Positions 1 to 25,347 of a stretch of DNA of 64,000 nt are shown piece by piece. A program made the translations under genes and the position numbers. Origin of the DNA: Candidatus Omnitrophota bacterium (lineage in GTDB: Bacteria; Omnitrophota; Gorgyraeia; Zapsychrales; JANLHA01); contig JACKFJ010000006.1 in assembly GCA_020632535.1 (NCBI GenBank), forward strand, positions 28,866 to 92,865, written 5' to 3'. How positions within the stretch are numbered: the first letter of the stretch is position 1; the number at the start of each line of letters is the position of its first letter. Under the pieces are notes generated by a model. That model did no database searches and had not been told where the DNA came from. It worked only from the letters and a program-made list of their open reading frames with translations.

Positions 1-62
1 GGCTGGGCTTTTATTAAAATGGTTTTCAAAATTAGATGTGTCTAGTTTAGAGGAGAAAAACA

Positions 63-416
63 ATGACAAATGAAAAAATAATCAATATTTTAAAATTTCT
101 TTTTGGTTCAATGGCGGTATTTATGGTTTACTTGGTCGTTATGACTTCATTAAAGAGTGATATGTTCAATCTTCCTGCTGTTGTGGTTCATGAGCCATGG
201 TTTCAGACAACATTGGTTGATTTTTATTTTCTTGTGACCATCCTTTCTGTGTGGGTCATTTATAAGGAAAAAACTCTTTTGCGCGCAATACTTTGGATCA
301 TCTCTTTTATTTGTTTGGGCAGTATTAGTGCGGCTTTTTATGTTTTTATACAACTTATGAATCTTAAAAAGGGTGAAGGGCTTGAGTCGGTATTATTAAG
401 GAAGGTAAGAAAATGA
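63..416 (+). CDS. small multi-TM membrane protein, DUF1475-like
   Basis: 117-aa ORF with a purine-rich SD upstream. Motif PWFQTTLVDFYF..WVIYKE..ILWII matches my memory of DUF1475. Its stop overlaps the next start (ATGA at 413-416). Confidence 0.6.
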   Translation: MTNEKIINILKFLFGSMAVFMVYLVVMTSLKSDMFNLPAVVVHEPWFQTTLVDFYFLVTILSVWVIYKEKTLLRAILWIISFICLGSISAAFYVFIQLMNLKKGEGLESVLLRKVRK

Positions 417-1204
417 CGGCTACGATTTTGCACATGCTTTTATTGGGAGCTTTAAGTGTAGGTAGTCTCTTTTTGATAATGTGGATTATTCATTTATTTT
501 TAAGAAATGCGGCTGTTGTCGACGTGGGTTGGGGACTTGGCTTTATTGTGCTGAGCTTTGTATATATTTTGCATGGTGAAGGATTTAATTTGCGTAACAC
601 GGTTTATTTCTTGATGATTTCTTTGTGGGGCATGAGAATTGTTTTGTATTTGATTAAAAGAATATCTTCAGAAAAGGAAGAAGACAAGCGTTATCGAAAG
701 ATTCGGCAGAATTTTGGTAAATTGGCTTGGTTTAAATTTTTGTTTATTTTTGAATTTCAGGCGGCATTAGAGGTGATCATTGCAATACCACTATTGATTG
801 TCAGTCTTAACCCTAATCCGGGATTGGCATTTATTGAAATTATTGGAATGATTATTTTTGCGATCTCGCTTCTAGGAGAAGCTGTTGCTGATGAACAATT
901 GCACGCATTTAAGCGTAATCCGGACAATAAAGGGAAAACGTGCGATGTTGGTTTTTGGAAGTATTCTCGACATCCCAACTATTTCTTTGAATTGATGATT
1001 TGGGTTGGAATTAGTGTTTTTGCATTGGGCAGTCCCATGGGATGGGTTGGGATTATCAGTCCGCTTGTGATGTTTTACTTGCTTATGTATGTTAGCGGAG
1101 TTCCATTAGCAGAAGAACAATCATTACTAAGTCGAGGGGATGAGTATCGTAAATATCAAAAGACGACTAGTATTTTTTTCCCTCTTCCGAAGAAAATGGG
1201 TTAA
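413..1204 (+). CDS. DUF1295 family membrane protein (steroid 5-alpha-reductase/ICMT-like fold)
   Basis: 263 aa, polytopic. C-terminal motif YSRHPNYFFE..W is typical of DUF1295. Translationally coupled to the upstream gene. Confidence 0.8.
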   Translation: MTATILHMLLLGALSVGSLFLIMWIIHLFLRNAAVVDVGWGLGFIVLSFVYILHGEGFNLRNTVYFLMISLWGMRIVLYLIKRISSEKEEDKRYRKIRQNFGKLAWFKFLFIFEFQAALEVIIAIPLLIVSLNPNPGLAFIEIIGMIIFAISLLGEAVADEQLHAFKRNPDNKGKTCDVGFWKYSRHPNYFFELMIWVGISVFALGSPMGWVGIISPLVMFYLLMYVSGVPLAEEQSLLSRGDEYRKYQKTTSIFFPLPKKMG

Positions 1205-1205
1205 T

Positions 1206-1658
1206 ATGAGAATATGGTCCCTTCACCCGAGGTATTTGGATTCACAAGGTCTTGTTGCTTTATGGCGGGAAGGTCTTTTGGCCCAAAAAGTTCTGGCGGG
1301 TCAAACCAAGGGGTATAGAAATCATCCGCAGTTAATTCGATTTAAAGAACAGGCTGATCCAATGGCTTCGATTGCTGTTTATTTGAAAGAAGTTTATCAG
1401 GAAGCTTGTCGAAGGTCTTTTCATTTTGATCCGGATAAAATTCCTGTTGTCAAAAAAAGACTATCGAAAATCAAACTTACTCAGGGGCAATTAGATTTTG
1501 AAACAGAACATTTGTACCAAAAATTACAAAGTCGGACTCCTGAACAATATAAAATTCTTCGTCAGGTTTCTAAAATAGAGCCGCATCCATTATTTAAAAT
1601 TATCAGCGGCAAGGTTGCGGTATGGGAAAAGGGGATTGAAAATGCGCACAATGCTTAA
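1206..1658 (+). CDS. pyrimidine dimer DNA glycosylase (endonuclease V / DenV-like family)
   Basis: N-terminus MRIWSLHPRYLDSQGLVALWREGLLAQKVL..GYRNHPQLIRF is the signature I recall for bacterial pyrimidine-dimer glycosylases. I moved the start to the ATG at 1206, just after the DUF1295 stop. Confidence 0.7.
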   Translation: MRIWSLHPRYLDSQGLVALWREGLLAQKVLAGQTKGYRNHPQLIRFKEQADPMASIAVYLKEVYQEACRRSFHFDPDKIPVVKKRLSKIKLTQGQLDFETEHLYQKLQSRTPEQYKILRQVSKIEPHPLFKIISGKVAVWEKGIENAHNA

Positions 1659-2694
1659 ATTATCAAATCGATTATTAGAAAAGGGATTAATCCCCGACCC
1701 TCTGATCCGTTTTGGGATCAAGGGTCTTCTGAGAGATAAATTGAAGGAAGAGATGAATTTAGACGCGCGTTCAGGTTCTGAACACAGAAAAAGGGAATTG
1801 ATCGCAAAGCTTATCTCATCACCGATCGCGGTCAACACGCGGGAAGCTAATAAACAGCATTATGAACTCCCAACAGAATTTTTTAAACTCATTATGGGAA
1901 GGCATATGAAATACAGTTGTGGATTTTGGAAAGACACAACGACGGATTTTGATGCTTCCGAAAAAGACATGCTCGAGATAACAGTGCAAAGAGCGCAACT
2001 GCAAGATGGTATGTCTGTGTTAGAACTTGGCTGTGGATGGGGATCGTTGACCTTGTTTATGGCTAGTCAATTTCCAAATAGTCGTATCGTCGGGGTATCC
2101 AATTCCGCCACTCAGCGTGAATATATTTTAAAAGAGGCCAAGGATCGCAAATTAAATAATGTGCATATTATCACGCAGGACATGAATGAATTTACGATTA
2201 ACGAAAAGTTTGATCGTGTTGTTTCTGTTGAGATGTTTGAACATATGCGCAATTACGCCAAACTTCTTGAAAAGATCGCGGGATTTCTAAACGATAATGG
2301 CAAGCTGTTCGTTCATATTTTTACTCATCGTAAGTTTGCTTATCTCTATCAAGAGAAAGACGAATCGGATTGGATTGCCAAATATTTTTTTACCGGTGGG
2401 ATTATGCCGTCGGATGATCTTTTGTTGCATTTTCAAGATCAGTTGAAAATTGAAGAACATTGGCAAATTAATGGGGTCCATTATCAGAAGACGTCAGAAG
2501 AATGGTTAAAGAATATGGATCGGAATAAAGATAAAATTATGCCGATATTGCGCAAAACATATGGAGAAGAGAAGGCGGGGAAATGGTGGGTTTATTGGCG
2601 GGTATTTTTTATGTCATGTGCCGAGTTGTGGGGATATCAGAATGGAACAGAGTGGATCGTGAGTCATTATCGATTTAGAAAGGAAACGGTTTGA
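1642..2694 (+). CDS. cyclopropane-fatty-acyl-phospholipid synthase family SAM-dependent methyltransferase (paralog 1)
   Basis: CMAS-type sequence with SAM motif VLELGCGWGSL and the C-terminal W..Y..CAE..F pattern. The ATG at 1642 follows aaaagggga; the track start at 1615 is TTG. Confidence 0.85.
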   Translation: MRTMLKLSNRLLEKGLIPDPLIRFGIKGLLRDKLKEEMNLDARSGSEHRKRELIAKLISSPIAVNTREANKQHYELPTEFFKLIMGRHMKYSCGFWKDTTTDFDASEKDMLEITVQRAQLQDGMSVLELGCGWGSLTLFMASQFPNSRIVGVSNSATQREYILKEAKDRKLNNVHIITQDMNEFTINEKFDRVVSVEMFEHMRNYAKLLEKIAGFLNDNGKLFVHIFTHRKFAYLYQEKDESDWIAKYFFTGGIMPSDDLLLHFQDQLKIEEHWQINGVHYQKTSEEWLKNMDRNKDKIMPILRKTYGEEKAGKWWVYWRVFFMSCAELWGYQNGTEWIVSHYRFRKETV

Positions 2695-3971
2695 TGAAAT
2701 CTCTCGCTGTCATTGGGACGGGAATTGCCGGAATGGGCGCTGCGCATTTCTTAAATGACCGCTATGAAATCACGTTGTATGAAAAAAATAGTTATCCCGG
2801 CGGACATACCAATACATTGACAATCGATGAGGATGGTGTGCCTGTTTATATTGATTCAGCTTTTATGGTTTACAATGAAATTACGTATCCGAATTTAACC
2901 AGACTTTTTAAGGATTTGGATGTCGAGACCAAACCGACGGATATGTCCTTTAGCGTTCAGCATCGCCCCAGCGGTTTAGAGTATTGTGGGACAGGCATGA
3001 AGGGACTATTTGCACAAAGAAAGAATCTTTTTTCGCTTCGATTTTGGAAAATGTTATTAGACATGAATCGCTTTAATAAAGAGAGTTTAGAAGTTCTCGA
3101 AGATCAGAGATATTTGCATCACACCATCAGTTCGTATGTGCAAGAGAAGCAATATGGTGAAGATTTCTTGATGAAGTTCTTGGTGCCGATGAGTTCGGCG
3201 GTTTGGTCTATGCCGACGAGACGGATGATGGAATTTCCGATAAGCACGTTGGTACGGTTTTTTAAGAATCACGGTTTTTTAGGTTTACGAGGGCATTATC
3301 AATGGCGTACCATTGTTAATGGAAGTCGGCAATATCGTGAAAAAATATTAAAAAAACTCAATGTCAGATTGAATGTTAAAGTAAAAAAGATTACCAGAGA
3401 AAATGGCCGGGTGCATGTTTTTGATCAGACGGGTGAAGAAAGATCATTCGATAAGGTTGTTTTAGCATGTCATGCTGATGAGGCTTTAAATGTATTAAGC
3501 GATGCGACCAGCTTGGAGAAAAATTTGCTTTCGAAATTCGGTTATCAAATGAATAAAGTGATTTTGCATACCGATCAATCCGTGATGCCCAAAACTCGCG
3601 GAGCATGGTCATCGTGGAATTACCGAATCGACAGTGACGCTCATGGTGAATGCAAAGCATCCACTATTTACGACATGAATAGTTTGCAGCAGGTTTCTAA
3701 AAAGAAGAATTATTTTGTTTCGGTTAACGATCCTAATCTTGTCGGCCCAAACGAAATTTTATGGCAGAGTCAATATACTCATCCTGTTTTTAATGTCGAG
3801 GCGATTGCGGCGCAAGATGATTTGCCTTGTTTAAATAAAAACTCAACGACCTATTTTTGCGGAAGCTATTTTAAGTACGGTTTTCATGAAGATGCTTTGA
3901 CATCCGGAATCGAGGTTGTGAGAGCCATGACCGGAGAATATCCTGTCGGGTACAAGGGGTTTGATTTATGA
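2694..3971 (+). CDS. NAD(P)/FAD-dependent oxidoreductase (amine-oxidase-like)
   Basis: N-terminal dinucleotide fold VIGTGIAGMGAAHFL..YEKNSYPGGH. The ATG at 2694 overlaps the upstream TGA. This family is a regular neighbour of cfa/DUF1365 genes. Confidence 0.85.
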   Translation: MKSLAVIGTGIAGMGAAHFLNDRYEITLYEKNSYPGGHTNTLTIDEDGVPVYIDSAFMVYNEITYPNLTRLFKDLDVETKPTDMSFSVQHRPSGLEYCGTGMKGLFAQRKNLFSLRFWKMLLDMNRFNKESLEVLEDQRYLHHTISSYVQEKQYGEDFLMKFLVPMSSAVWSMPTRRMMEFPISTLVRFFKNHGFLGLRGHYQWRTIVNGSRQYREKILKKLNVRLNVKVKKITRENGRVHVFDQTGEERSFDKVVLACHADEALNVLSDATSLEKNLLSKFGYQMNKVILHTDQSVMPKTRGAWSSWNYRIDSDAHGECKASTIYDMNSLQQVSKKKNYFVSVNDPNLVGPNEILWQSQYTHPVFNVEAIAAQDDLPCLNKNSTTYFCGSYFKYGFHEDALTSGIEVVRAMTGEYPVGYKGFDL

Positions 3972-4747
3972 ATTCTTGCCTTTATGAAACAGTGATCATG
4001 CATCATCGTCTAAAACCGAAAGAACATAGGTTTTCTTATAAATTTTTTTCATTCTATTTAGATTTGGATGAAATCGACGAGATTGTAAGCAAAATATTTT
4101 TTATAAGCCGTAACACGTTTAATATGTATTCATTTTTTGACGCGGACCATTTGGAAAAAGAGCAACATTCAATCAAGGACAACATTATATCCTATTTGCA
4201 GGGTTATGGGATTGATCTTCAGGGTGGCCGTATCATGCTTTTAACGTACTTACGTACTTTGGGATATGTTTTTAATCCGGTCTCTTTATATTTTTGTTTT
4301 GATAAAAATAATATTCCACTTTGTGTGGTGCCGGAGATTGGTAACACTTTCGGAGAGTTAAAACTTTTTCTTATTGGGACAGAGAACCTTAAGGATGATA
4401 AGTTTAAGAATAAGCAGGAGAAATTTTATTATATTTCTCCGTTTACGCGATTGGACGACACTCTTGATTTTAAACTAACGATCCCCGATAACCGTTTAAA
4501 TATATGCATTGATACCGCCCGCAATGGGGAAAAAATCATTTTGACGAGTATGATTGGTGAGAAAAAGGAGTTAACTAATTTTAATTTGCTGATGTTGAGT
4601 ATTAAGTTCCCGCTTATAACTTTAAAGGTGATTACACTGATTCATTGGCATGCGTTGATGCTTTGGCTTAAGAGAATACCACATGAAGAAAAGACAGATA
4701 ATCCCCATTTGCAAAAGGAGGTTCGGCGTGCTTGGAACAAGGATTAA
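3968..4747 (+). CDS. DUF1365 domain protein
   Basis: N-terminus CLYETVIMHHRLKPKEHRFSYKFFSFYLDLDE is typical of DUF1365. 4-nt overlap with the upstream gene. Confidence 0.8.
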   Translation: MNSCLYETVIMHHRLKPKEHRFSYKFFSFYLDLDEIDEIVSKIFFISRNTFNMYSFFDADHLEKEQHSIKDNIISYLQGYGIDLQGGRIMLLTYLRTLGYVFNPVSLYFCFDKNNIPLCVVPEIGNTFGELKLFLIGTENLKDDKFKNKQEKFYYISPFTRLDDTLDFKLTIPDNRLNICIDTARNGEKIILTSMIGEKKELTNFNLLMLSIKFPLITLKVITLIHWHALMLWLKRIPHEEKTDNPHLQKEVRRAWNKD

Positions 4748-4760
4748 TCGAATACAGAAA

Positions 4761-5993
4761 ATGTTATCGGGTAAGACAAGACTCAATCTTTGCCAGCGGA
4801 TTATTGATCATGTTTTTCGTCCGATGCACTTGGGAAGGATGACGTTGATTTTACCCAATGGCGGAATGTTGACCTACGGGAATGGTCAAGGAGGCGTGCA
4901 CGCGAGTATTCGGATTAATAGGAATGATTTCTTTAAGAAATGTGTTCTTTTTGGTGATGTTGGGTTTGGTGAAGCGTATGTGGATGGGGATTGGGAAACG
5001 GATGATATTACTAAAGTGATCGAATGGATGATTATTAATGTGGATAATCATCCCACTTTGATGTCGGACAAAAAGAAGCGGACACCAGTCAATTTTTTGA
5101 AGATCTGCAATAATATCCTTTCATTTTTTAGGAAGAATTCGCTGCTGGGAAGTCAAAAAAATATCAGCGCTCATTATGATTTGGGAAATGAATTTTACCA
5201 ATTATTTTTGGATTCTTCGATGACATACTCATCGGCATATTTTAAGCATCCTAATCAATCACTTGAGGATGCTCAATATCAAAAATATGAGGGATTGTGT
5301 CAGAAGTTAAAATTAAAACCGACTGATCATGTTTTGGAGATTGGCAGCGGATGGGGTGGGTTTGCTATTTATGCCGCGAAGAATTATGGGTGTCATGTTA
5401 CGACGGTGACGGTTTCACAACAACAATTTAATTTTGCCTTGTATCGTATTGCGGCAGAGCAATTAGCGGATAAGATTACGCTTGAGTTAAAGGATTACCG
5501 TAAAGTCGAAGGGAAATTCGATAAGATTGTTTCAATCGAAATGTTGGAGGCGGTGGGGCATGAATATTATGAATCCTATTTTAGCCAATGCCATCATTTG
5601 CTTAAAAAGGACGGAATTTTGGCTTTGCAAATGATTTTGTCTCCGGATAATCGCTATGAATCTTTTAGGAAGAATATTGATTGGATTCAAAAACATATTT
5701 TCCCGGGGAGTCTTCTTCCTTCGGTAGCGATTATTCAAAAAATGATTAATAAAACAGGTGATCTTAATTTGTATCATTTTGAGGATATCACTGCTGATTA
5801 TGTTAAAACTCTCGCGATTTGGCGTGAGAATTTTAACAAAAAATTGGAACAGGTGCGTGGGCAGGGATTTGATGAGACGTTTATTCGCAAGTGGAATTAT
5901 TATTTATCCTATTGTGAAGCGGCTTTTAAAACGCGCAATATTTCTGTCGCGCAAGTTGTTTTTACTCGGCCCAACAATTTATCACTTATGTGA
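4761..5993 (+). CDS. cfa: cyclopropane-fatty-acyl-phospholipid synthase family methyltransferase (paralog 2)
   Basis: SAM motif VLEIGSGWGGFAIYAA, plus YFKHPNQSLEDAQ..K and the C-terminal YLSYCEAAF CMAS signature. Start taken at the first ATG after the DUF1365 stop. Confidence 0.85.
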   Translation: MLSGKTRLNLCQRIIDHVFRPMHLGRMTLILPNGGMLTYGNGQGGVHASIRINRNDFFKKCVLFGDVGFGEAYVDGDWETDDITKVIEWMIINVDNHPTLMSDKKKRTPVNFLKICNNILSFFRKNSLLGSQKNISAHYDLGNEFYQLFLDSSMTYSSAYFKHPNQSLEDAQYQKYEGLCQKLKLKPTDHVLEIGSGWGGFAIYAAKNYGCHVTTVTVSQQQFNFALYRIAAEQLADKITLELKDYRKVEGKFDKIVSIEMLEAVGHEYYESYFSQCHHLLKKDGILALQMILSPDNRYESFRKNIDWIQKHIFPGSLLPSVAIIQKMINKTGDLNLYHFEDITADYVKTLAIWRENFNKKLEQVRGQGFDETFIRKWNYYLSYCEAAFKTRNISVAQVVFTRPNNLSLM

Positions 5994-6011
5994 ATAAGTC
6001 AGGAGAGGTGT

Positions 6012-6392
6012 ATGTATCGTACAATAGTTATAACGATGATTTTAATATTTATAAGTGTTCCTAATTCATTTGCTGAGAGTAATAAAATTCAGAAATTGCG
6101 GCGTGGGGTTACAAATGTTTTTACGGCTCCTTTAGAAATTCCTAAAGAGATAAGGGCTCATTGGATTGCTGGTTCAGAAAAGACGCCGCATATTCTTGTT
6201 TGGATCTTTTGTGGCGCAGTTAAAGGAACAGTAATGACAGCTGCCCGGGTCGGTTCAGGGGCGTGGGATATTGTTACTTTCCCGACAGGAATTTTAGAAA
6301 ATCATGAGCCTCTTATTGAGCCTGACTTTGTATTTGATGATTGGCCGCAAAGAGAAGAGGGGGTCGTCTACAAAAATCTTAGCGATTTATGA
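6012..6392 (+). CDS. secreted small protein, TIGR04073-like (exosortase-associated family by name)
   Basis: Signal peptide, then KLRRGVTNVFTAPLEIPKEI..G..KG..M...R.GSGAWDIVTFP..EPLIEPD. This matches my memory of TIGR04073. Confidence 0.55.
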   Translation: MYRTIVITMILIFISVPNSFAESNKIQKLRRGVTNVFTAPLEIPKEIRAHWIAGSEKTPHILVWIFCGAVKGTVMTAARVGSGAWDIVTFPTGILENHEPLIEPDFVFDDWPQREEGVVYKNLSDL

Positions 6393-6967
6393 GAATTATT
6401 TTAAATCAACTGATGATAATTATTTTTTTATTGTGTCTTAGCGCTAGTTTAGCGTTTGCCGATTCGCGCTATGTTTTTACTTGTGACGACTCAGAAATTA
6501 AAAGCTCTATAAAATATAGTGTTTTGGGAAAATACAATTCGGATTTTCAAGAGTGTCAGGGAACGATTATTTACGATGAGCTTAAAAAACTTATTAAATT
6601 TGTGCGAATCGAGATTGAGGTTAAAAGTATTCAATCCAGTTGTGGGTGGTGTGATGATATTGTCAAATCGAGAAGGATTCTGGATTCTGAGCAATATCCG
6701 TTAATTGTTTTTGAAAGCACAGATTTCAATAATGATTCTGAAAGCTATTGGGCCACGGGGACAATTGATATGCACGGCGTTTCGCAAAAACTTTATTTAC
6801 CGTTTCATCTCCAAGAAAAAAATTCAAGTGAGCTTTTTTTAAAAGGAACTTGGGTTTTACGAAGAAAAGATTTTAAAGTGACGTGGAATAAGCTGCTGGA
6901 TCATGGAGGGCTTATGGTAGGAGATCATTTTACGGTTGATTGGGCGGTTTTAGCAAAGAAATTATAG
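6389..6967 (+). CDS. YceI-like periplasmic lipid/polyisoprenoid-binding protein
   Basis: Signal peptide. YceI-like core GTIDMHGVSQKLYLPFHL..F.V.W. 4-nt overlap with the upstream gene. Confidence 0.65.
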   Translation: MRIILNQLMIIIFLLCLSASLAFADSRYVFTCDDSEIKSSIKYSVLGKYNSDFQECQGTIIYDELKKLIKFVRIEIEVKSIQSSCGWCDDIVKSRRILDSEQYPLIVFESTDFNNDSESYWATGTIDMHGVSQKLYLPFHLQEKNSSELFLKGTWVLRRKDFKVTWNKLLDHGGLMVGDHFTVDWAVLAKKL

Positions 6968-6976
6968 GGAGTTTCA

Positions 6977-7894
6977 ATGTTTACTGGGAAAATATTAGTT
7001 TTGGGAGCTTCCGGTTATATCGGGGCACAATTGGTCACAATGCTTCTTGAAAAAGGTTATAAGGTCCGTGCCTGCGGAAGATCAATTTCGAGATTAAAGA
7101 AGTTTGAATGGTCGCGGCATGCCAATGTTGAGCTAAGTCAAGTCGATGCTTTGGAGATGGAAAATTTGCGTAATATTTGTCAGGGGTGTGCAGTTGTTTA
7201 TTATCTGGTTCATTCAATGAATGCGCAGCATAAAAACTTTGCTCAAGCTGATCGACAGGCGGCACACAATATGGTTCAAGCTGCTGAGGCTACTGGGTTA
7301 CAAAGGATCATTTATTTGGGGGGATTGGGCGATGATGATAAAAATTTAAGCCATCATCTTAGGTCGCGGATGGAAGTTTCCAAAATTATTCAATCCGGAA
7401 AAGTTCCGGCAACAACATTGAGAGCCGCGATGATCATTGGAAAGGGCAGTGTCTCTTTTGAGATCTTGAGGGCTTTGGTTAAAAATTTACCAATTATGAT
7501 TACACCACGATGGGTTAGCACTGAGTCGCAACCGATTGCAGTGAGTAATGTCTTAAATTATCTTGTTGGGTGCTTAGAATCTGAAGAAACAGTGGGGCAA
7601 GTTTTTGATATTGGAGGGCCTGAAATTTTATCTTATCGAAAACTTATGGATATTTACGCTCAGGAAGCTGGAATCTTTAAACGCTATATTATTCCAGTTC
7701 CTTTTTTGACTCCTAGCTTGAGTTCTTTGTGGATTGCGCTTGTAACGCCCTTTCCTGCCTATATTGCGCGTCCGTTGGCAGAAGGTCTTAAGAACAGGGT
7801 TGTTTGTCGTGAACACAGGATACGCGTGCTTATCCCGCAAACTTTATTAGATAGTCGACAGGCTATTCGTGCGGCAATTAAGAAAGATCAGTGA
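6977..7894 (+). CDS. NAD(P)H-binding protein (atypical SDR / NmrA-like)
   Basis: Rossmann motif ILVLGASGYIGAQLV. 305 aa. Confidence 0.75.
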   Translation: MFTGKILVLGASGYIGAQLVTMLLEKGYKVRACGRSISRLKKFEWSRHANVELSQVDALEMENLRNICQGCAVVYYLVHSMNAQHKNFAQADRQAAHNMVQAAEATGLQRIIYLGGLGDDDKNLSHHLRSRMEVSKIIQSGKVPATTLRAAMIIGKGSVSFEILRALVKNLPIMITPRWVSTESQPIAVSNVLNYLVGCLESEETVGQVFDIGGPEILSYRKLMDIYAQEAGIFKRYIIPVPFLTPSLSSLWIALVTPFPAYIARPLAEGLKNRVVCREHRIRVLIPQTLLDSRQAIRAAIKKDQ

Positions 7895-8466
7895 TTATGA
7901 ATAAACGAATTCGGTATATTTTATTTGCTATGGTTGTTTGTTCGTATTTTTTGATATCAGAAGTTTCCGTAAAAGCCGAGCAAACGATCGCGATAAAAAA
8001 TGCTTTTAATTTGAATAATATGGTTCTTTTGGGAACAGCGCTCAAAAAATTCTTAGCTTTTCGAGTAGTTACGGTAGATTTGTATATTGAGCGCGGGTAT
8101 GGATCTGACGATGTTCTTTCCGATGTTACGAAAAGGCTGGAAGTAAATTATCATGTGAATATTCCTAAACATGAACTGGATCGAGCCACCGTGAAGGGTA
8201 TTGAGAAAAATTATAGTCAAGACCAGATGGCGGCGTTAATGCCGCAAATTGATCAGATTAACTCGTATTATCCCGATATAAAATCTGGAGATCAGATTGC
8301 TGTCACCTATGTTCCGGGAGTTGGTTCTCAGGTTGAGCTTAATGGGGAGTTAAGGGGTGTGGTCCCCGGGAGTGATTTTGCAAAAGCATTTTTTTCAATA
8401 TGGTTGGGAGATAATCCTGTTGATAAAAATGCGAAATTAAAACTATTGGGTCTTAGTGACAGATGA
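7891..8466 (+). CDS. chalcone isomerase-like periplasmic protein
   Basis: Signal peptide. The pattern ..FLAFRVVTVDLYIE.. and C-terminal FAKAFFSIWLGDNPVD..LK..LLG is typical of bacterial chalcone-isomerase-like proteins. Alternative start is the ATG at 7897. Confidence 0.65.
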   Translation: MIMNKRIRYILFAMVVCSYFLISEVSVKAEQTIAIKNAFNLNNMVLLGTALKKFLAFRVVTVDLYIERGYGSDDVLSDVTKRLEVNYHVNIPKHELDRATVKGIEKNYSQDQMAALMPQIDQINSYYPDIKSGDQIAVTYVPGVGSQVELNGELRGVVPGSDFAKAFFSIWLGDNPVDKNAKLKLLGLSDR

Positions 8467-8486
8467 AATTTTTCTAGGAGAGTACA

Positions 8487-9068
8487 ATGAGTAGAAGATC
8501 AAATTACGATTGGATTTTGCTGATTTTTTCGCTGGTCAGTATCTATATTCTTGCTCCTGATTTGGATAGGCGGCATGGGTTTTTTGTCAGTACATGTTTT
8601 GCTCTGATTCTTATTTTAAGCAGTAGAATGATTTTGCAAACAAAGTTTATACTGCGATATATTGCATTTATAGCCGTTGATCTGTTTACATATTTTATTT
8701 TGTTTAACGACCAGCCTTGGGATATTTTATTCAATGGTGGGTTATTTGAAAGTTCTCCAGCGCCGCTTATTATTTGTTCTTTTTTGATGTCATTGGCAGG
8801 AGGGCTTCTTTTGAAAAATTGGCCGGATCGATTTAAATACTTCTTTATTACCTCCGGATTGCAAGTACCTATTGCTATATTTGCTGGCATGCCCACAGTG
8901 GAAACGTTGTTAAGTCGAGTTGCAAGTAGTTTGGGCTTTTATCATAATTATTCCGGTGCTTGGCAGGCATGGCAATTTGAGTGGATGCTTACATACTATC
9001 TACCTATCTATTTCCTAAGTAAAAAGAATACCGTCAATAAAAACAATGAAAATAAAGTTTTGTTATAG
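8487..9068 (+). CDS. hypothetical polytopic membrane protein
   Basis: 193 aa with 5-6 hydrophobic helices and aggagag SD upstream. No recognised motif. Its position in the cluster is the one usually held by DUF-type membrane proteins. Confidence 0.55.
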   Translation: MSRRSNYDWILLIFSLVSIYILAPDLDRRHGFFVSTCFALILILSSRMILQTKFILRYIAFIAVDLFTYFILFNDQPWDILFNGGLFESSPAPLIICSFLMSLAGGLLLKNWPDRFKYFFITSGLQVPIAIFAGMPTVETLLSRVASSLGFYHNYSGAWQAWQFEWMLTYYLPIYFLSKKNTVNKNNENKVLL

Positions 9069-9081
9069 GAATGGAGTGTGT

Positions 9082-9621
9082 ATGAATATTAGTAATTTGT
9101 CAGTTTTATTGATTGTTTTATTCATGACAGGGTGCGCGCATTCTTTGCCTCCATTAAAAACGGTTGATCGGGTGGATCTTAACCGGTATATGGGGCCATG
9201 GTATGTGATTGCCTGTATTCCAACCTTGATTGAAACGAAGGCTTATAATGCTGTTGAAGAATATCGGCTTCTGCCAAATGGCACAATCGATACGATTTTT
9301 ACTTTCAATCAGGGGGGTTTTGATGGGCCAAAGAAAAAGTATAATCCTCGTGGTTTTGTAATTGATACTGTCAATAACTCAACGTGGAAAATGCGTTTTA
9401 TTTGGCCGTTTAAGGCTGAGTTTTTAATTATTTATCTTAGCCCAGACTATAGTCAAACCATCATTGGCCGCAATAAGCGGGATTATTTTTGGATTCAGGC
9501 TCGAACACCAGAAATTTCAGAGGCTGATTATCAACGTTTACTTGGCATTTTGGCAGATAAGGGCTATGACATTTCAAAGGTTCGTAAAGTACCGCAGTCT
9601 TGGCCTGACAGTGATCGTTAA
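9082..9621 (+). CDS. blc: lipocalin family outer-membrane lipoprotein (Blc-like)
   Basis: Lipobox LFMTGC, then DLNRYMGPWYVIA (lipocalin SCR1) and the later ..W.Q.R.. pattern. Start moved to the ATG at 9082. Confidence 0.8.
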   Translation: MNISNLSVLLIVLFMTGCAHSLPPLKTVDRVDLNRYMGPWYVIACIPTLIETKAYNAVEEYRLLPNGTIDTIFTFNQGGFDGPKKKYNPRGFVIDTVNNSTWKMRFIWPFKAEFLIIYLSPDYSQTIIGRNKRDYFWIQARTPEISEADYQRLLGILADKGYDISKVRKVPQSWPDSDR

Positions 9622-9710: not shown

Positions 9711-10073
9711 ATGCGATTACGTGAAAAGAAAAGAATTTGGAGTGTGTTGATTCTTGTTCCCGTTGCTTTTTTATTTCTTTCCTGCTGCTGTTTTAAAGCC
9801 GAAGCCGCGGTTGTGAAAAAATCAAATTGCGCGGCATGCCCGCAAAAAGATACTTCTAACCATCAAGCACAATGTCCTCACAAGCAAATCAAAGCGGTTG
9901 TCGATTCACACACGTTTGACGAAACAGTTTTAAAACAATCGTTTATTCCGATTCCCTCCATGGTCGAAAATCGCCTCACATCGCCGCAATTTAAAAACAA
10001 ATTCACTTTGCATTTTGATAATCCGCAAAATTATTCTTCGCTTTATCCACAAAACCCCATTCTTCGTTTATAA
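9711..10073 (+). CDS. hypothetical secreted Cys/His-containing protein preceding the metal efflux genes
   Basis: Signal-like N-terminus. Contains CAACPQKDTSNHQAQCPHKQ. No family recognised. Confidence 0.45.
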   Translation: MRLREKKRIWSVLILVPVAFLFLSCCCFKAEAAVVKKSNCAACPQKDTSNHQAQCPHKQIKAVVDSHTFDETVLKQSFIPIPSMVENRLTSPQFKNKFTLHFDNPQNYSSLYPQNPILRL

Positions 10074-10154
10074 TCATTTTTTTGTATCTGTGGAGCAGGA
10101 AAGGTATTTCACTCTTTCCGAATGTGTAACTGCTTTTATTACGGAGAAATGTTT

Positions 10155-11309
10155 ATGAAAAAAAATAAAATTGTTTGGATCATCGTAGCGATTGTTTTAC
10201 TTTCCGGAGTTTTGCTTTTGCTTGCGCGCACGCGTGAGCATCTTTCGCATTCAAAGCAAAGTGTGAGCAAGGAAACATATTATTGTCCTATGCATCCACA
10301 TTATACGAGTGATCATCCGGGCAAATGTCCCATTTGTAATATGAACTTGATTAAAAAAGAGGATGAAGATCACAAAGGGCACTCATCGTCAAGCCAATCT
10401 GTTTCGGATCACGCCGAAGTTTCGATCAATTTGCAACAGCAACAATTGATTGGGATAAAAACACAGAAAGTCACTCATCAAACTTTAGTGAAAACGATTC
10501 ATGCTTATGGTTATGCTGCCCACGACTATGATTTATATGACGCGCAATTGGAATACATTGATGCTTGGCAGCAATATTACCTTTATGTTATCCAACGACC
10601 GATATTTATGGAAAATTATCGGGATGATTGGTGGCAATATTATTCTACTGCTCAACCTGAAGGTCGCTGGCGCAATATTGATAAATTAAAGGCACAGCGG
10701 CGACTTGTCAAAGCTGAGTTTGAAGCATTGCATCTTGGCATTACACAGGCACAATTGAATGATCTTCGGAAAGTGAAGGCAGGACAGCCTTGGGTTCAGC
10801 CTAATTTATTATTCTTTGATAAAAATCATCCGCAGTGGGTTTATGCACAAATTTTGGAAAATGATTTGGGTTTTATTGATGTTGGGCAAAAGGCCAAAAT
10901 TACAATTCCGACGTATGGCGAGACAACAGAGGGAATTGTTCGTAATGTGGCACTTATGGTTGACCCAAACACGAGGACGACGAAAGTTCGTGTTGAAATG
11001 CCTAGTTATCGTGGTGAACTGAAGGAAAATTTGTTCGTCACCATTGATATGCCTGTTGAATTAGATGAGGGTTTGATTGTTCCGCGCGAAGCAATTTTGG
11101 ATACAGGATTGGAAAAAATTGTTTTTGTGCAGACTCAGCAAGGTGTTTTTCAACCACGGAATATTGTTACGGGTTTTGAAGGGGAAGGGATGGTTGTTGT
11201 CAAGTCAGGTTTAAAAGAAGGGGAAGTGATTGTTGTTTCAGGAAATTTTCTTTTGGATTCCGAAAGTCGTTTGAAAAGTGCCTTGATGGGAGGGCATCAG
11301 CATGATTGA
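10155..11309 (+). CDS. cusB: efflux RND periplasmic adaptor (CusB-like) with an N-terminal heavy-metal-binding CPxH..CPxC module
   Basis: YYCPMHPHYTSDHPGKCPICNMNL is followed by an HlyD/MFP-type barrel-sandwich and beta-barrel sequence. The ATG at 10155 lies 9 nt after ggaga. Confidence 0.85.
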   Translation: MKKNKIVWIIVAIVLLSGVLLLLARTREHLSHSKQSVSKETYYCPMHPHYTSDHPGKCPICNMNLIKKEDEDHKGHSSSSQSVSDHAEVSINLQQQQLIGIKTQKVTHQTLVKTIHAYGYAAHDYDLYDAQLEYIDAWQQYYLYVIQRPIFMENYRDDWWQYYSTAQPEGRWRNIDKLKAQRRLVKAEFEALHLGITQAQLNDLRKVKAGQPWVQPNLLFFDKNHPQWVYAQILENDLGFIDVGQKAKITIPTYGETTEGIVRNVALMVDPNTRTTKVRVEMPSYRGELKENLFVTIDMPVELDEGLIVPREAILDTGLEKIVFVQTQQGVFQPRNIVTGFEGEGMVVVKSGLKEGEVIVVSGNFLLDSESRLKSALMGGHQHD

Positions 11310-14300: not shown

Positions 14301-14505
14301 CAAAATGATGACGGTTATGGCGGCACTCTTAGGTTTATTGCCAATTATGTTTTCTCACGGCGCGGGGGCGGATGTGATGAAACGTATCGCGGCTCCAATG
14401 GTCGGTGGATTAATCAGTTCTTTTGCTCTTGAATTATTAGTTTATCCGGTTGTCTTCTTTCTTTGGAAATGGCATTTTGAAATGAAAAGAAGGATTGTGC
14501 AATGA
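11302..14505 (+). CDS. cusA: CusA/CzcA family heavy-metal efflux RND permease
   Basis: 1067 aa with the typical HME-RND N-terminus MIEKIIDFCARQKFLVL and 12 TM helices. 8-nt overlap with the adaptor gene. Confidence 0.95.
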   Translation: MIEKIIDFCARQKFLVLSFVFVAIVASVWSVKNIPLDAIPDLSDTQVIVYSRWDRSPDLIEDQITYPIVSALLGIPGVKAIRGASDFGFSYVYVIFKDGTDLYWARSRVLEYLSKISSELPQGAKTELGPDATGVGWVLQYALVDTSGKHDLGELRSFQDWHLRYWLQSVPGVAEVAAQGGFVKQYQITVDPRKLLAYNIPITKVIEAVRQGNQETSGRLVEFTGAEYMIRGRGYAKSIEDFEKIVIARDDALGAPITIKDIGHVAIGGDIRRGVLDLNGEGDVVGGTVVMRQGENALKVIDAVKAKLKETQSALPDGVRVEITYDRSDLILRAIDNLKKQLLEEMIIVSIVILVFLWHFPSAFIPILTIPIAVLLSFIPLLGLKLTSNIMSLAGIAISIGVLVDGAIVQMENVYKRLEEWEANGRKENPQDVTLKALKEVAPSIFFALLVIAVSFLPIFTLLDQEGRLFKPLAWSKTFAMAIAAILVVTLNPALRLLFVRTKPFAGRPKWLMSLGNSLFVGRFYAEEKHPVSKVLFKVYEPVCRFVLKHTTATLVAAFLLMASTVPIFLKLGSEFMPPLWEGQILYMPITMPGISVTEAQKLLQTQDKILKQFPEVDKVFGKIGRIESSTDPAPFSMAETVVLLKPESQWRVVNGHRLKHDQLIAEMDQALKIPGTTNAWTMPIKNRIDMLSTGIRTPIGIKVLGSNFQEIDKIGMQLEAMLKDIPGTRSVFAERTQGGYFLDFDLNRDRLAQYQLSVADAQTTIQSAIGGENITTTIEGRERYNVNVRYPRALRDDLDDLKRVLIVTPSGAQIPLGEVANIVVRTGPSMIRNENGMLAGYVYVDVAGRDIGSYVKEAKKIVQQQLKVPQGYSLIWSGQYENMLRVRERLKIVIPLTLFIIVLLLYMNTKSWVKTGIVLLAVPFSLVGAFWLLWALDYNLSIAVWVGMIALMGLDAETGVLMLLFLDISYKDAVSRGAMKSKNDLHEAVVHGAVRRVRPKMMTVMAALLGLLPIMFSHGAGADVMKRIAAPMVGGLISSFALELLVYPVVFFLWKWHFEMKRRIVQ

Positions 14506-16639: not shown

Positions 16640-16677
16640 TTTAAATACCACGCAATGAATAATCAAAAGGAATAAAT

Positions 16678-17952: not shown

Positions 17953-17956
17953 AAGA

Positions 17957-20128: not shown

Positions 20129-20140
20129 AAAAGAGTTCAA

Positions 20141-20758: not shown

Positions 20759-20814
20759 GTCTCGTCCGTTTTGAATACTCGACAAAAATCTGTGAAAATG
20801 CTACCTTATTGTCT

Positions 20815-22178: not shown

Positions 22179-22270
22179 CTTAAGAAAGCAGATTATTTTT
22201 AAGTTAGGACAGTGGTAAAGTATAGCGATATTTGATTGAATGTATAATTTTGATAATGTATTCTTTAGCT

Positions 22271-22777: not shown

Positions 22778-22796
22778 TTAATTTCTAAAAGGGTGT

Positions 22797-25345: not shown

Positions 25346-25347
25346 GT

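What the first reader, a model, noticed from the sequence alone, without database searches (positions are those of the whole stretch)
63..9621. Thirteen-gene translationally coupled lipid-modification cluster (2x Cfa-type methylase, FAD oxidoreductase, DUF1365, DUF1295, DUF1475 and binding proteins), possibly a furan/methylated fatty-acid pathway
Sequence shows one tight + strand array with many 4-nt overlaps. In order, the genes are: DUF1475-like, DUF1295, pyrimidine-dimer glycosylase, Cfa paralog 1, FAD amine-oxidase-like oxidoreductase, DUF1365, Cfa paralog 2, TIGR04073-like, YceI, NAD(P)-binding protein, chalcone-isomerase-like, a membrane protein, and lipocalin.

Established knowledge: the core Cfa / FAD oxidoreductase / DUF1365 / DUF1295 / SDR / lipocalin set is a widely conserved proteobacterial cluster. 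It is typically under an ECF sigma/anti-sigma (ChrR-type) photo-oxidative stress regulon.

As I recall, Rhodobacter sphaeroides work on furan fatty acids assigned a Cfa-type methylase (UfaM), then a desaturase (UfaD) and an O2-dependent furan-forming enzyme (UfaO) from that regulon. I cannot verify from memory which families UfaD and UfaO belong to.

Inference: this lineage carries an expanded version with two methylases and four putative lipid-binding or periplasmic proteins. No ECF sigma/ChrR pair is in view, so both its product and its regulation are open.
Basis: partly seen in the sequence, partly recalled or inferred. Interest (0 to 1): 0.6.

Follow-up and report, generated by a model that had tools for sequence, protein, structure and literature searches.

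The report
Furan fatty-acid stress operon in Omnitrophota
This is a real, tightly packed operon from an uncultured Omnitrophota bacterium that carries relatives of all four enzymes known to make methylated furan fatty acids (membrane antioxidants), so it is an ordinary new example of a known, widespread stress cluster and not a new kind of system.

Summary
A related contig shows a 14th gene, a MarR-family regulator, that overlaps the first gene.

The FAD oxidoreductase is 36% identical over its full length to R. sphaeroides UfaD. The DUF1365 protein is 30% identical to UfaO. The Cfa-family gene after them sits where experimentally proven ufaM sits in R. palustris and Halomonas.

"Cfa paralog 1" is not a Cfa. 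It belongs to the coclaurine-N-methyltransferase-like clade (TM 0.93 to CNMT), which also holds FufM, the furan-ring methylase. The cluster therefore most likely makes mono- and dimethyl furan fatty acids on phospholipids. It is co-expressed with a UV-dimer glycosylase and four exported lipid-binding proteins.

The two-methylase layout is not lineage-specific. It recurs in other Omnitrophota, Bacteroidota and Acinetobacter plasmids, and, as a DUF1295-methylase pair under ECF sigma/ChrR, in Shinella.

The modest local novelties are MarR control through a conserved TTGACATGTCAA operator, in place of sigma-E/ChrR, and the Omnitrophota host. Verdict: new member of a known kind, low-to-moderate interest. 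The product is inferred, not shown.

The parts
1..73 (+). 3' end of a MarR-family regulator gene (169 aa; the rest lies upstream of the window, at L001 4751-5260). It overlaps the next gene by 11 nt.
   Evidence: identical contig L001; offset is window + 5187. Pfam MarR/MarR_2 E 4e-10. Stop codon TGA at window 71-73. Conserved promoter and TTGACATRTCAA palindrome 25-38 nt upstream of the start codon in four MarR-headed loci.
63..416 (+). Short DUF1475 membrane protein (117 aa, 3 predicted transmembrane segments).
   Evidence: Pfam PF07343 E 5e-15. Hydropathy. Conserved at 75-78% identity in L022/L023 and 38% in Bacteroidota L025.
413..1204 (+). DUF1295 polytopic membrane protein (263 aa), distantly related to steroid 5-alpha-reductase and ICMT. 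It is the conserved partner placed just before the CNMT-like methylase.
   Evidence: PF06966 E 2e-70, Steroid_dh E 1e-7. About 8 hydrophobic segments. Lies directly upstream of the methylase in L023, L025, L027, L031, L032, Shinella L029 and Acinetobacter L030.
1206..1658 (+). Pyrimidine-dimer DNA glycosylase (150 aa), a UV-damage repair enzyme embedded in the lipid operon.
   Evidence: PF03013 E 4e-22. Present in L022 (74% identity). Absent at this position in L023, which instead carries the UV endonuclease UvdE later in the operon.
1642..2694 (+). Methylase 1 (350 aa): SAM-dependent methyltransferase of the coclaurine-N-methyltransferase-like (CNMT/LIME1/FufM) clade. Predicted furan-ring C-methylase (FufM-like).
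   Evidence: PDB phmmer: CNMT 6gkv E 4.5e-80 over the full length, against E. coli Cfa at 1.5e-30. AF2 model pLDDT 89.5; Foldseek TM 0.93 to CNMT against 0.65-0.67 to CFA synthases. FufM is 37.9% identical to AT4G33110 (PMC10940516), which is annotated as a putative CNMT (PMC3388832). 48% identical to the Shinella ChrR-linked homologue.
2694..3971 (+). UfaD-like FAD-dependent fatty-acyl desaturase (425 aa).
   Evidence: PF01593 and PF13450. 36% identity over 423 aa, E 2e-99, to R. sphaeroides-type RSP1091 at L028:3517-4809. The motif TIYDMNSLQ corresponds to ITYWMNSLQ in RSP1091.
3968..4747 (+). UfaO-like DUF1365 protein (259 aa), the predicted O2-dependent furan-forming enzyme. Modelled as a beta-barrel with a long hydrophobic C-terminal helix.
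   Evidence: PF07103 E 1e-64. 30% identity over 229 aa, E 2e-32, to RSP1090 at L028:4820-5569. No PDB sequence relative. Model pLDDT 84.7; only weak fold matches to the FABP-like Ycf58 and to nitrobindin.
4728..5993 (+). Methylase 2 (421 aa): Cfa/CMAS-family methylase in the ufaM position. Predicted cis-vaccenate 11-methyltransferase (UfaM-like).
   Evidence: PF02353 E 2e-86. E. coli Cfa 6bqc E 5e-58. Gene order ufaD-ufaO-ufaM as in R. palustris (PMC7380195) and Halomonas (PMC12089945). The positions aligned with E. coli C139 and H266 are S and Q; the Q is conserved in six in-cluster homologues.
6012..6392 (+). Exported TIGR04073-family small protein (126 aa, signal peptide).
   Evidence: NCBIfam TIGR04073 59.4 bits against a cutoff of 50. 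N-terminal signal-like sequence ...SVPNSFA/ES. Present only in L001 and L022.
6389..6967 (+). Exported YceI-like lipid/polyisoprenoid-binding protein (192 aa, signal peptide).
   Evidence: PF04264 E 8e-21. Signal-like N-terminus. Present only in L001 and L022.
6977..7894 (+). NmrA/atypical-SDR NAD(P)-binding protein (305 aa); role unknown.
   Evidence: PF13460 and PF05368, E about 1e-17. 81% identity in L022; absent from L023 and L025.
7891..8466 (+). Exported chalcone-isomerase-like (Chalcone_3) protein (191 aa, signal peptide), a putative fatty-acid-binding protein.
   Evidence: PF16036 E 5e-29. Signal-like N-terminus. Present in L022, L023 and L031; a 'chalcone isomerase family' gene lies near the Acinetobacter cluster.
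8487..9068 (+). Membrane protein of 193 aa with 4 predicted transmembrane segments and no family.
   Evidence: No Pfam or NCBIfam hit. Hydropathy. 77% identical copy in L022 only.
9082..9621 (+). Blc-type bacterial lipocalin (179 aa) with a lipoprotein signal (…MTGC). Last gene of the operon.
   Evidence: PF08212 E 7e-37. NCBIfam Blc subfamily E 3e-20, below cutoff. Lipobox. Followed by an 89-nt gap and unrelated genes (orf120, CusB/CusA); the downstream neighbours differ in L022 and L023.

Best explanation
A MarR-headed 14-gene operon of a Candidatus Omnitrophota genome that encodes a complete methylated furan-fatty-acid (FuFA) pathway together with photo-oxidative/UV damage functions.

Proposed mechanism, acting on phospholipid-bound acyl chains:
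1. Methylase 2 (Cfa family, ufaM position) methylates cis-vaccenate to 11-methyl-12-trans-18:1.
2. The FAD enzyme (UfaD-like) desaturates this to 11-methyl-10t,12t-18:2.
3. The DUF1365 protein (UfaO-like) inserts one atom of O2 to close the furan ring, giving 9M5-FuFA.
4. Methylase 1 (CNMT/FufM-like) adds the second ring methyl, giving 9D5-FuFA.

FuFAs then scavenge singlet oxygen and radicals in the membrane. The co-transcribed pyrimidine-dimer glycosylase repairs UV lesions. The four exported proteins (TIGR04073, YceI, chalcone-isomerase-like, Blc lipocalin) probably bind or move lipids or their oxidation products in the envelope.

Expression is probably repressed by the MarR protein at a TTGACATGTCAA palindrome that overlaps the -35 box, and relieved by an unknown signal. 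This replaces the sigma-E/ChrR switch used in alphaproteobacteria.

Shown here: gene content, homology, synteny, conservation, and the operator-like motif.

Inferred: all chemistry, the dimethyl product, the roles of DUF1295, DUF1475, NmrA and the binding proteins, and MarR repression.
For: Characterised pathway and families: PMC7380195.

Direct homology to the R. sphaeroides-type proteins. These were identified in L028 by the primer-derived termini MPFETSEFAR…ASAAA* and …QDVTR*, and by the adjacent rpoE-chrR genes.
- UfaD: 36% identity over 423 aa, E 2e-99.
- UfaO: 30% identity over 229 aa, E 2e-32.

Methylase 2:
- The order ufaD-ufaO-Cfa matches R. palustris RPA2571-2570-2569.
- It also matches Halomonas, where the in-cluster gene gave 11-methyl-octadec-12-enoate in E. 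coli.

Methylase 1:
- CNMT clade by sequence (E 4.5e-80) and by fold (TM 0.93).
- FufM is 37.9% identical to AT4G33110/LIME1, which is annotated as a putative CNMT.
- Methylases 1 and 2 share 25% identity, like the 26% reported for FufM against UfaM.
- The FufM C-terminus …RLKPA* deduced from its primer resembles …YRLRPA in the Shinella homologue.
- RPA0923 and fufM overlap by ATGA, like the DUF1295-methylase pairs.

Co-occurrence:
- Every one of 8 contexts examined keeps DUF1295, methylase 1, UfaD, UfaO and Cfa.
- 19 contig lengths are shared between the top-120 lists of methylase 1 and UfaO.

Stress link:
- ECF sigma/ChrR sit directly upstream of DUF1295 and methylase 1 in Shinella.
- A photolyase lies next to the Acinetobacter cluster.
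- UvdE and TspO occur in L023.
- The Chlamydomonas singlet-oxygen regulon contains CFA1, a 'coclaurine N-methyltransferase', DUF1365, DUF1295 and SOUL.

MarR:
-.
- The operator occurs once, at the same place, in 4 of 4 MarR-headed loci and in none of the 28 other loci.
Against: - There are no lipid data for any Omnitrophota.
- Identity to the characterised enzymes is only 30-36%.
- UfaM and FufM sequences could not be retrieved, so both methylase assignments rest on position, clade and literature links.
- The nearest solved relatives of methylase 1 are alkaloid N-methyltransferases.
- UfaD and UfaO need O2, while many Omnitrophota are described as anaerobes (my general knowledge).
- The closest relative locus comes from dark groundwater (L022, Hainich), where UV and singlet-oxygen stress is not obvious.
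- In R. sphaeroides the other operon genes (RSP1087-1089) were dispensable for FuFA synthesis, so the accessory genes here may be unrelated to FuFA.
- No fatty-acid desaturase lies in this operon, unlike the Bacteroidota and Acinetobacter versions, so the supply of the cis-unsaturated substrate is assumed.
Confidence: 0.68

Rival explanations
1. The cluster makes only monomethyl FuFA or its methyl-olefin intermediates. Methylase 1, with DUF1295 and DUF1475, modifies something else, for example N-methylation of an amine lipid such as phosphatidylethanolamine, or methylation of a quinone or isoprenoid.
For: All solved close relatives of methylase 1 are N-methyltransferases. DUF1295 resembles steroid reductase and ICMT enzymes that act on isoprenoid substrates. 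No direct FufM comparison was possible. The paper notes that FufM homologues occur in only a subset of genomes.
Against: FufM itself belongs to this CNMT/LIME1 clade. Methylase 1 is always adjacent to ufaD-ufaO-Cfa in the eight contexts seen. It is the most conserved protein of the core across phyla, at 61-66% identity against 40-59% for the others. FufM alone sufficed for 9D5-FuFA in R. sphaeroides.
Confidence: 0.17
2. Methylase 2 is an ordinary cyclopropane fatty-acid synthase, or forms a mid-chain methyl-branch (tuberculostearate-like) system with the FAD enzyme. The cluster would then produce cyclopropane or saturated methyl-branched acyl chains, not furans.
For: The best named matches of methylase 2 are CFA synthases. 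Pairs of a methylase and a flavoprotein also make 10-methyl fatty acids in actinobacteria (my recollection of the BfaA/BfaB work; not checked here).
Against: - All NCBIfam CFA-synthase equivalog scores are below cutoff (297 against 400-600).
- Two of the four side chains that bind bicarbonate in E. coli Cfa are replaced (C139 to S, H266 to Q). The Q is conserved in all in-cluster homologues. The residue roles are from my knowledge of the E. coli enzyme.
- The FAD enzyme matches UfaD over its full length.
- A UfaO homologue sits between the two genes.
- In two organisms the in-cluster Cfa-like gene was shown to be UfaM.
Confidence: 0.08
3. The array is a stress 'island' of independently acting genes (DNA repair, lipid modification, envelope lipid carriers) kept together only by co-regulation, and some of the enzymes may be inactive. 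No single pathway product exists.
For: Accessory content varies between loci: TspO, UvdE, GDSL lipase, SOUL, desaturase, an extra epimerase. RSP1087-1089 are dispensable for FuFA synthesis. The flanks differ in every genome, and an integrase lies upstream in L022.
Against: The five-gene core keeps its order and its translational coupling across phyla. Catalytic motifs are invariant in methylase 1 (EMFEH and GCGWG are invariant in 31 sequences) and in UfaO (35 invariant columns).
Confidence: 0.07

Closest known systems
Rhodopseudomonas palustris CGA009 ufaD-ufaO-ufaM (RPA2571-2569) plus fufM (RPA0924) (Lemke et al. 2020, PMC7380195)
   Same: The same four enzyme families and the same order ufaD-ufaO-ufaM. 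A second methylase of the CNMT-like clade is present. fufM is translationally coupled to an upstream gene, as methylase 1 is to DUF1295 in related loci.
   Different: In R. palustris fufM lies about 1.8 Mb away from ufaDOM (by locus-tag numbering). Here all four genes are in one operon, with methylase 1 ahead of ufaD. The regulator here is MarR. Sequence comparison with the R. palustris proteins could not be run.
Rhodobacter (Cereibacter) sphaeroides sigma-E/ChrR regulon operon RSP1091-1087 and ufaM RSP2144
   Same: UfaD and UfaO homologues are adjacent and translationally coupled (36% and 30% identity). Both are linked to singlet-oxygen and UV defence.
   Different: The R. sphaeroides operon lies next to rpoE-chrR. 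It continues with an MFS transporter (RSP1089), not a methylase. ufaM is elsewhere, and the paper reports no fufM in R. sphaeroides. The window has MarR, two methylases, DUF1295/DUF1475, a glycosylase and four exported binding proteins.
Two-methylase clusters already annotated with generic names in Proteobacteria: Acinetobacter sp. WY4 plasmid NZ_CP053948.1 and Shinella sp. H4-D48 plasmid p1 NZ_CP093338.1
   Same: Acinetobacter: lipocalin, desaturase, FAD oxidoreductase, DUF1365, Cfa, DUF1295 and a CNMT-like methylase, with a chalcone-isomerase-family gene and a photolyase nearby. Shinella: DUF1295 and a CNMT-like methylase overlapping by 4 nt, 48% identical to window methylase 1.
   Different: Gene order differs: the DUF1295-methylase pair comes after ufaDOM in Acinetobacter. 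Shinella is controlled by ECF sigma/ChrR. Neither has MarR, DUF1475, the glycosylase, TIGR04073 or YceI.
Chlamydomonas reinhardtii SAK1-dependent singlet-oxygen regulon (PMC4067076) and Arabidopsis lipid-droplet proteins AtUFAMD1, AtUFAO1, AtFUFM1/LIME1 (PMC10940516)
   Same: The same family set responds together: a Cfa-type methylase, a 'coclaurine N-methyltransferase', DUF1365, DUF1295 and SOUL. SOUL also appears in the Bacteroidota loci L025 and L032.
   Different: Eukaryotic, dispersed nuclear genes. In plants the UfaD-like and UfaM-like parts are fused. The products are unproven there too.
Plant benzylisoquinoline-alkaloid N-methyltransferases (CNMT 6gkv, PavNMT, TNMT)
   Same: Closest solved structures to methylase 1: 38% identity, TM 0.93, and the E-x-x-E-H motif is retained.
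   Different: No alkaloid pathway context. The bacterial clade is embedded in a lipid-modification operon, so the substrate is presumably an acyl chain (C-methylation) and not an amine.

Membership tests
UfaD (FuFA fatty-acyl desaturase) | NAD/FAD-binding, phytoene-desaturase/amine-oxidase-like fold | tested here: met
   PF01593 E 6e-22 and PF13450 E 3e-11. The paper describes UfaD this way.
UfaD (FuFA fatty-acyl desaturase) | Full-length sequence homology to a characterised UfaD (RSP1091) | tested here: met
   36% identity over 423 of 425 aa, E 2e-99, against L028:3517-4809. The identity of L028 was checked through primer-derived termini and the adjacent rpoE-chrR genes.
UfaD (FuFA fatty-acyl desaturase) | Converts 11Me-12t-18:1 to 11Me-10t,12t-18:2 on phospholipids, O2-dependent | not testable with these tools
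   Needs expression and FAME GC-MS.
UfaO (furan-forming oxygenase) | DUF1365 domain | tested here: met
   PF07103, 218.9 bits against a cutoff of 25, covering positions 1-232 of the 235-position profile.
UfaO (furan-forming oxygenase) | Homology to a characterised UfaO (RSP1090), with the gene immediately downstream of ufaD | tested here: met
   30% identity over 229 aa, E 2e-32. 4-nt overlap with the ufaD-like gene.
UfaO (furan-forming oxygenase) | Incorporates O2 into 11Me-10t,12t-18:2 to give 9M5-FuFA | not testable with these tools
   Biochemical assay required.
UfaM (cis-vaccenate 11-methyltransferase) | Cfa/CMAS-family SAM methylase | tested here: met
   PF02353, 290 bits. E. coli Cfa E 5e-58.
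UfaM (cis-vaccenate 11-methyltransferase) | Located directly after ufaD-ufaO, as in the organisms where the in-cluster gene was proven to be UfaM | tested here: met
   Window order is 2694-3971, 3968-4747, 4728-5993. Precedents are R. palustris and Halomonas.
UfaM (cis-vaccenate 11-methyltransferase) | Closer to RSP2144/RPA2569 than to true cyclopropane synthases | not tested
Canonical cyclopropane fatty-acid synthase (E. coli Cfa type), considered for methylase 2 | Conserved bicarbonate-binding side chains C139, E239, H266, Y317 (residue roles from my knowledge of the E. coli enzyme) | tested here: not met
   E and Y are kept. C is replaced by S and H by Q. The Q is conserved in 6 of 6 in-cluster homologues. 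NCBIfam CFA-synthase equivalog scores are below cutoff.
FufM (9M5-FuFA ring methylase) | Member of the CNMT/LIME1-like methyltransferase clade and not of Cfa proper | tested here: met
   CNMT E 4.5e-80 against Cfa 1.5e-30. TM 0.93 against 0.65-0.67. The link from FufM to this clade comes from the literature.
FufM (9M5-FuFA ring methylase) | Direct sequence similarity to RPA0924 (Q6NBA4) | tested here: inconclusive
   Primer-based scans did not retrieve RPA0924. Only its deduced C-terminal pentapeptide RLKPA could be compared, with …YRLRPA in Shinella and …YRFRK in the window.
FufM (9M5-FuFA ring methylase) | Co-occurs with ufaM, ufaD and ufaO in the genome | tested here: met
   Same operon here and in 7 other contexts.
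FufM (9M5-FuFA ring methylase) | Methylates 9M5-FuFA but not 18:1 | not testable with these tools
   In vitro assay required.
Sigma-E/ChrR (ECF, zinc anti-sigma) singlet-oxygen regulon | ECF sigma and ChrR genes adjacent to, or in the neighbourhood of, the cluster | tested here: not met
   Neither gene was found among the window ORFs of 120 aa or more that were scanned (about 50 of 55; five ORFs nested in or overlapping called genes were not scanned), nor in the 5 kb upstream. The rest of the genome was not visible.
MarR-type autoregulated operon | MarR winged-helix regulator as first gene, with a palindromic operator overlapping its promoter | tested here: met
   MarR/MarR_2 domains. TTGACATRTCAA overlaps a TTGACA -35 box and is conserved in L001, L022, L023 and L031 only. 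Binding and ligand are untested.

The most novel reading that the evidence does not exclude
The conserved MarR-(DUF1475)-DUF1295-methylase 1-UfaD-UfaO-methylase 2 operon is a self-contained, sigma-E-independent module for dimethyl furan fatty-acid synthesis. In this reading DUF1295 and DUF1475 are still-unrecognised pathway components, for example the missing reductant or partner for UfaO or FufM. The exported YceI, chalcone-isomerase-like, TIGR04073 and lipocalin proteins would traffic FuFA lipids or their oxidation products to the outer membrane. Non-phototrophic, groundwater Omnitrophota would then make FuFAs for a purpose other than photo-oxidative stress.
Probability: 0.2. Interest if true: 0.5.

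Novelty: new member of a known kind. Interest (0 to 1): 0.3.

Why it matters
If the prediction holds, this operon is a compact, single-promoter template for heterologous production of mono- and dimethyl furan fatty acids, because all four enzymes sit in 4.4 kb. It would also extend FuFA synthesis to an uncultured phylum.

The comparative result may be more useful than the window itself. The FufM-type methylase is almost always paired with DUF1295 and clustered with ufaD, ufaO and ufaM across several phyla. This gives testable candidates for the unexplained parts of the pathway and a second regulatory logic (MarR) beside sigma-E/ChrR.

None of this changes the picture of a known, widespread stress cluster.

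Tried and rejected
1. Retrieving R. palustris FufM by its primer-derived 5' 21-mer in genome contigs gave 20 unrelated loci, mostly Chloroflexi, with no homologue of any cluster protein.
2. A 24-mer spanning the RPA0923/fufM junction found nothing in metagenome contigs.
3. A search for FufM, UfaM or RPA proteins among homologous-protein hits failed. Only the best 120 hits are listed, and all were above 60% identity.
5. Sigma-70 promoter and terminator scans inside the cluster were no better than shuffles (36 against 33 promoters, 9 against 7.6 terminators). No internal signals are claimed.
6. My recollection that RSP1089 is a Cfa paralog was wrong. It is an MFS transporter.
7. OhrR-type peroxide sensing by the MarR protein was considered. 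Only sub-threshold similarity was found to many MarR equivalogs (BilQ, MprA, FabT, OhrR), so no ligand is proposed.
8. A search for further TTGACATRTCAA sites in the window found none, even with one mismatch allowed.

Full report
**Observation**

Window 63-9621 carries 13 co-directional ORFs.

An identical Logan contig (L001) supplies gene-caller starts. With these, all junctions are overlaps (-4 four times, -1, -17, -20) or gaps of 20 nt or less. Internal promoter-like and terminator-like sites are no more frequent than in shuffled sequence. The array is therefore one transcription unit, as far as sequence can show.

L001 also shows what the window cuts off. A 169-aa MarR-family gene has its last 73 nt at window 1-73 and overlaps the DUF1475 gene by 11 nt. 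The operon therefore has 14 genes.

The operon ends at the lipocalin gene. An 89-nt gap follows, then a Cys-rich exported ORF and CusB/CusA-type efflux genes. The downstream neighbours differ in related genomes.

**Organism**

The window's valyl-tRNA synthetase is 100% identical to a protein of an NCBI MAG named Candidatus Omnitrophica bacterium, on a 116-kb contig. Nearly all named relatives are Omnitrophota, the one exception being a hydrothermal-vent metagenome record. The rest of the window is ordinary chromosome: beta-oxidation genes, heme synthesis, amino-acid synthesis. It holds no ECF sigma or ChrR gene.

**What the enzymes are**

The published pathway (PMC7380195) runs as follows:
- UfaM, a Cfa-type methylase, converts cis-vaccenate to 11Me-12t-18:1.
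- UfaD, an FAD/NAD-binding phytoene-desaturase-like enzyme, makes 11Me-10t,12t-18:2.
- UfaO, a DUF1365 protein, uses O2 to make 9M5-FuFA.
- FufM, a second methylase, makes 9D5-FuFA.

All steps act on phospholipid acyl chains. In R. palustris the genes lie in the order ufaD-ufaO-ufaM, and fufM lies elsewhere.

To test homology directly I used primer sequences from the paper's supplement. One 24-mer retrieved a 3-Mb contig (L028). It encodes ChrR and RpoE, then a protein starting MPFETSEFAR and ending ASAAA, then a protein ending QDVTR. These are exactly the termini deduced for RSP1091 and RSP1090.
- The window FAD enzyme is 36% identical to this UfaD over 423 aa (E 2e-99).
- The window DUF1365 protein is 30% identical to this UfaO over 229 aa (E 2e-32).

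The next R. sphaeroides gene, RSP1089, is an MFS transporter and not a methylase.

**The two methylases are different kinds of enzyme**

They share only 25% identity over 223 aa.

Methylase 2 (window 4728-5993):
- It matches E. coli Cfa best (E 5e-58).
- It fails the NCBIfam CFA-synthase cutoffs.
- At the positions aligned with E. coli C139 and H266 it has S and Q. From my knowledge, these residues are bicarbonate ligands in E. coli Cfa.
- The Q is conserved in all six in-cluster homologues examined, including one from Acinetobacter.
- It occupies the ufaM position. In R. palustris and in Halomonas the gene at this position was shown experimentally to make 11-methyl-octadecenoate.

Methylase 1 (window 1642-2694):
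- It is far closer to plant coclaurine, pavine and tetrahydroprotoberberine N-methyltransferases (E 4.5e-80, full length) than to any Cfa (1.5e-30).
- Its AlphaFold model (pLDDT 89.5) superposes on CNMT with TM 0.93, against 0.65-0.67 for CFA synthases.
- FufM belongs to the same clade. It is 37.9% identical to Arabidopsis AT4G33110/LIME1, which is annotated as a putative coclaurine N-methyltransferase.
- The singlet-oxygen regulon of Chlamydomonas contains a 'coclaurine N-methyltransferase' beside CFA1, DUF1365, DUF1295 and SOUL.

I could not obtain the FufM sequence. The assignment of methylase 1 as FufM-like therefore rests on clade membership, on synteny, and on two small consistencies. 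First, the primer-deduced FufM C-terminus RLKPA resembles YRLRPA in a Shinella homologue. Second, RPA0923 and fufM overlap by ATGA, as DUF1295-methylase pairs do.

**Conservation**

I examined eight other contexts of methylase 1 homologues:
- three Omnitrophota-type loci with MarR (L022, L023/L024, L031);
- two Bacteroidota-type loci (L025/L026, L032);
- an unassigned 1-Mb contig (L027);
- an Acinetobacter plasmid (L030);
- a Shinella plasmid (L029).

All but Shinella keep DUF1295, methylase 1, UfaD, UfaO and the Cfa-type methylase together. In Shinella the DUF1295-methylase pair sits directly behind an ECF sigma/ChrR pair, with DUF1365 and an FAD oxidoreductase nearby.

Nineteen contig lengths are shared between the top-120 homologue lists of methylase 1 and UfaO. 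On plasmids alone, 438 records carry a methylase 1 homologue.

The 'expanded, two-methylase' layout is therefore widespread. It is already present in annotated genomes under generic names.

Accessory genes vary by locus:
- TIGR04073, YceI, NmrA and the 193-aa membrane protein occur only in the window lineage and L022.
- L023 has TspO, UvdE and a GDSL lipase.
- The Bacteroidota loci have a SOUL protein and an extra 238-aa unknown protein; L025/L026, L027 and the Acinetobacter plasmid carry a fatty-acid desaturase.

UV-repair genes recur: Pyr_excise here and in L022, UvdE in L023, and a photolyase next to the Acinetobacter cluster. This fits a light/oxidative stress unit.

**Regulation**

Four MarR-headed loci share a conserved upstream region. 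It reads ATTACTTGACAT(G/A)TCAA, then about 7 nt, then TATGTTAA-like, then the start codon.

The 12-bp palindrome TTGACATGTCAA overlaps the TTGACA -35 box. It occurs once in each of these four loci and in none of the other 28 loci held. It does not occur elsewhere in the window. L022 extends it to a perfect 26-bp palindrome.

This is the usual design of an autorepressed MarR operon. Binding and inducer are untested, and family scans give no clue to a ligand.

**Accessory proteins**

- TIGR04073, YceI and the chalcone-isomerase-like protein have signal-peptide-like N-termini.
- The lipocalin has a lipobox.
- DUF1475 has 3 predicted transmembrane segments, DUF1295 about 8, and the 193-aa protein 4.
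- The UfaO model (pLDDT 84.7) is a beta-barrel with a long C-terminal helix. It gives only weak fold matches, to a FABP-like protein and to nitrobindin. I treat that as a hint only.

**Conclusion**

The best reading is a MarR-controlled operon for mono- and probably dimethyl furan fatty acids, bundled with UV repair and envelope lipid-binding proteins (confidence about 0.68).

The rivals, in order of weight, are:
- methylase 1 has a non-FuFA substrate;
- methylase 2 is a plain cyclopropane or methyl-branch enzyme;
- the array is a loose stress island with no single product.

The cluster is a new member of a known kind. The Omnitrophota host, the MarR operator, and the single-operon arrangement of all four enzymes are modest additions. 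The product is unproven, and the O2 requirement sits uneasily with the presumed lifestyle of the phylum.

Noticed in passing
L001 4715-4726 (36-25 nt upstream of the MarR start codon, and about 460 nt upstream of window position 1); also L022 7903-7914, L023 8319-8330, L031 7619-7630: A conserved 12-bp palindrome TTGACAT(G/A)TCAA overlaps a TTGACA -35 box in front of every MarR-headed version of the operon. It is extended to a perfect 26-bp palindrome in L022. It is absent from the other 28 loci and from the window.
   Followed up: partly
window 4728-5993 (residues S169 and Q301); same columns in L022, L023, L025, L027 and L030: All in-cluster Cfa-type methylases have Q where E. coli Cfa has H266, and S or A where it has C139. 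The CNMT-like methylases keep the H. This could be a sequence signature that separates UfaM-type methyl-olefin formers from true cyclopropane synthases.
   Followed up: partly
L025 11026-11742 and L032 10125-10841: The Bacteroidota versions of the cluster carry an extra 238-aa ORF with no Pfam family. It is inserted between the CNMT-like methylase and ufaD and overlaps the methylase gene by 4 nt.
   Followed up: no
L022 3943-5115; compare the flanks of L001, L022 and L023: The operon sits in a different chromosomal neighbourhood in each Omnitrophota genome. In L022 a phage-type integrase and HTH genes lie just upstream. The same core is plasmid-borne in Acinetobacter and Shinella. This suggests horizontal mobility of the module.
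   Followed up: no
L023 15519-17642: One Omnitrophota variant replaces the pyrimidine-dimer glycosylase with the UV endonuclease UvdE. It also adds a TspO tetrapyrrole-binding membrane protein and a GDSL lipase after the lipocalin gene.
   Followed up: no
window 9711-14505: Directly after the operon lies a 120-aa exported, Cys-rich ORF (…LSCCCFKAEAAVVKKSNCAACPQ…), followed by a CusB-like membrane-fusion protein with a heavy-metal-binding domain and a CusA/AcrB-type RND pump. This is probably a copper/silver efflux unit.
   Followed up: no
window 15158-27441: A fatty-acid beta-oxidation block (AMP-binding enzyme, thiolase, FadB-like hydratase/dehydrogenase, long acyl-CoA dehydrogenase) is followed by a patatin-like phospholipase fused to a cyclic-nucleotide-binding domain. 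This is more lipid metabolism, 5-18 kb from the FuFA operon.
   Followed up: no
window 27466-29565: A single 699-aa ORF fuses porphobilinogen deaminase (HemC), a uroporphyrinogen-III methyltransferase (TP_methylase) and uroporphyrinogen-III synthase (HemD). HemB and HemL follow.
   Followed up: no
window 20141-20758: A PsbP-like protein (PF01789 E 5e-10) occurs in a bacterium that is presumably non-photosynthetic.
   Followed up: no
L028 5566-6771: R. sphaeroides-type RSP1089, the gene after ufaO, is an MFS_2 transporter (E 1.5e-47) and not a methylase.
   Followed up: yes
window 3968-4747: The AlphaFold model of the UfaO-like DUF1365 protein is a beta-barrel with a roughly 30-residue C-terminal helix. 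Its only PDB fold matches are weak: the FABP-like Ycf58 (3bdr, E 5e-3) and nitrobindin. No solved relative exists by sequence.
   Followed up: partly
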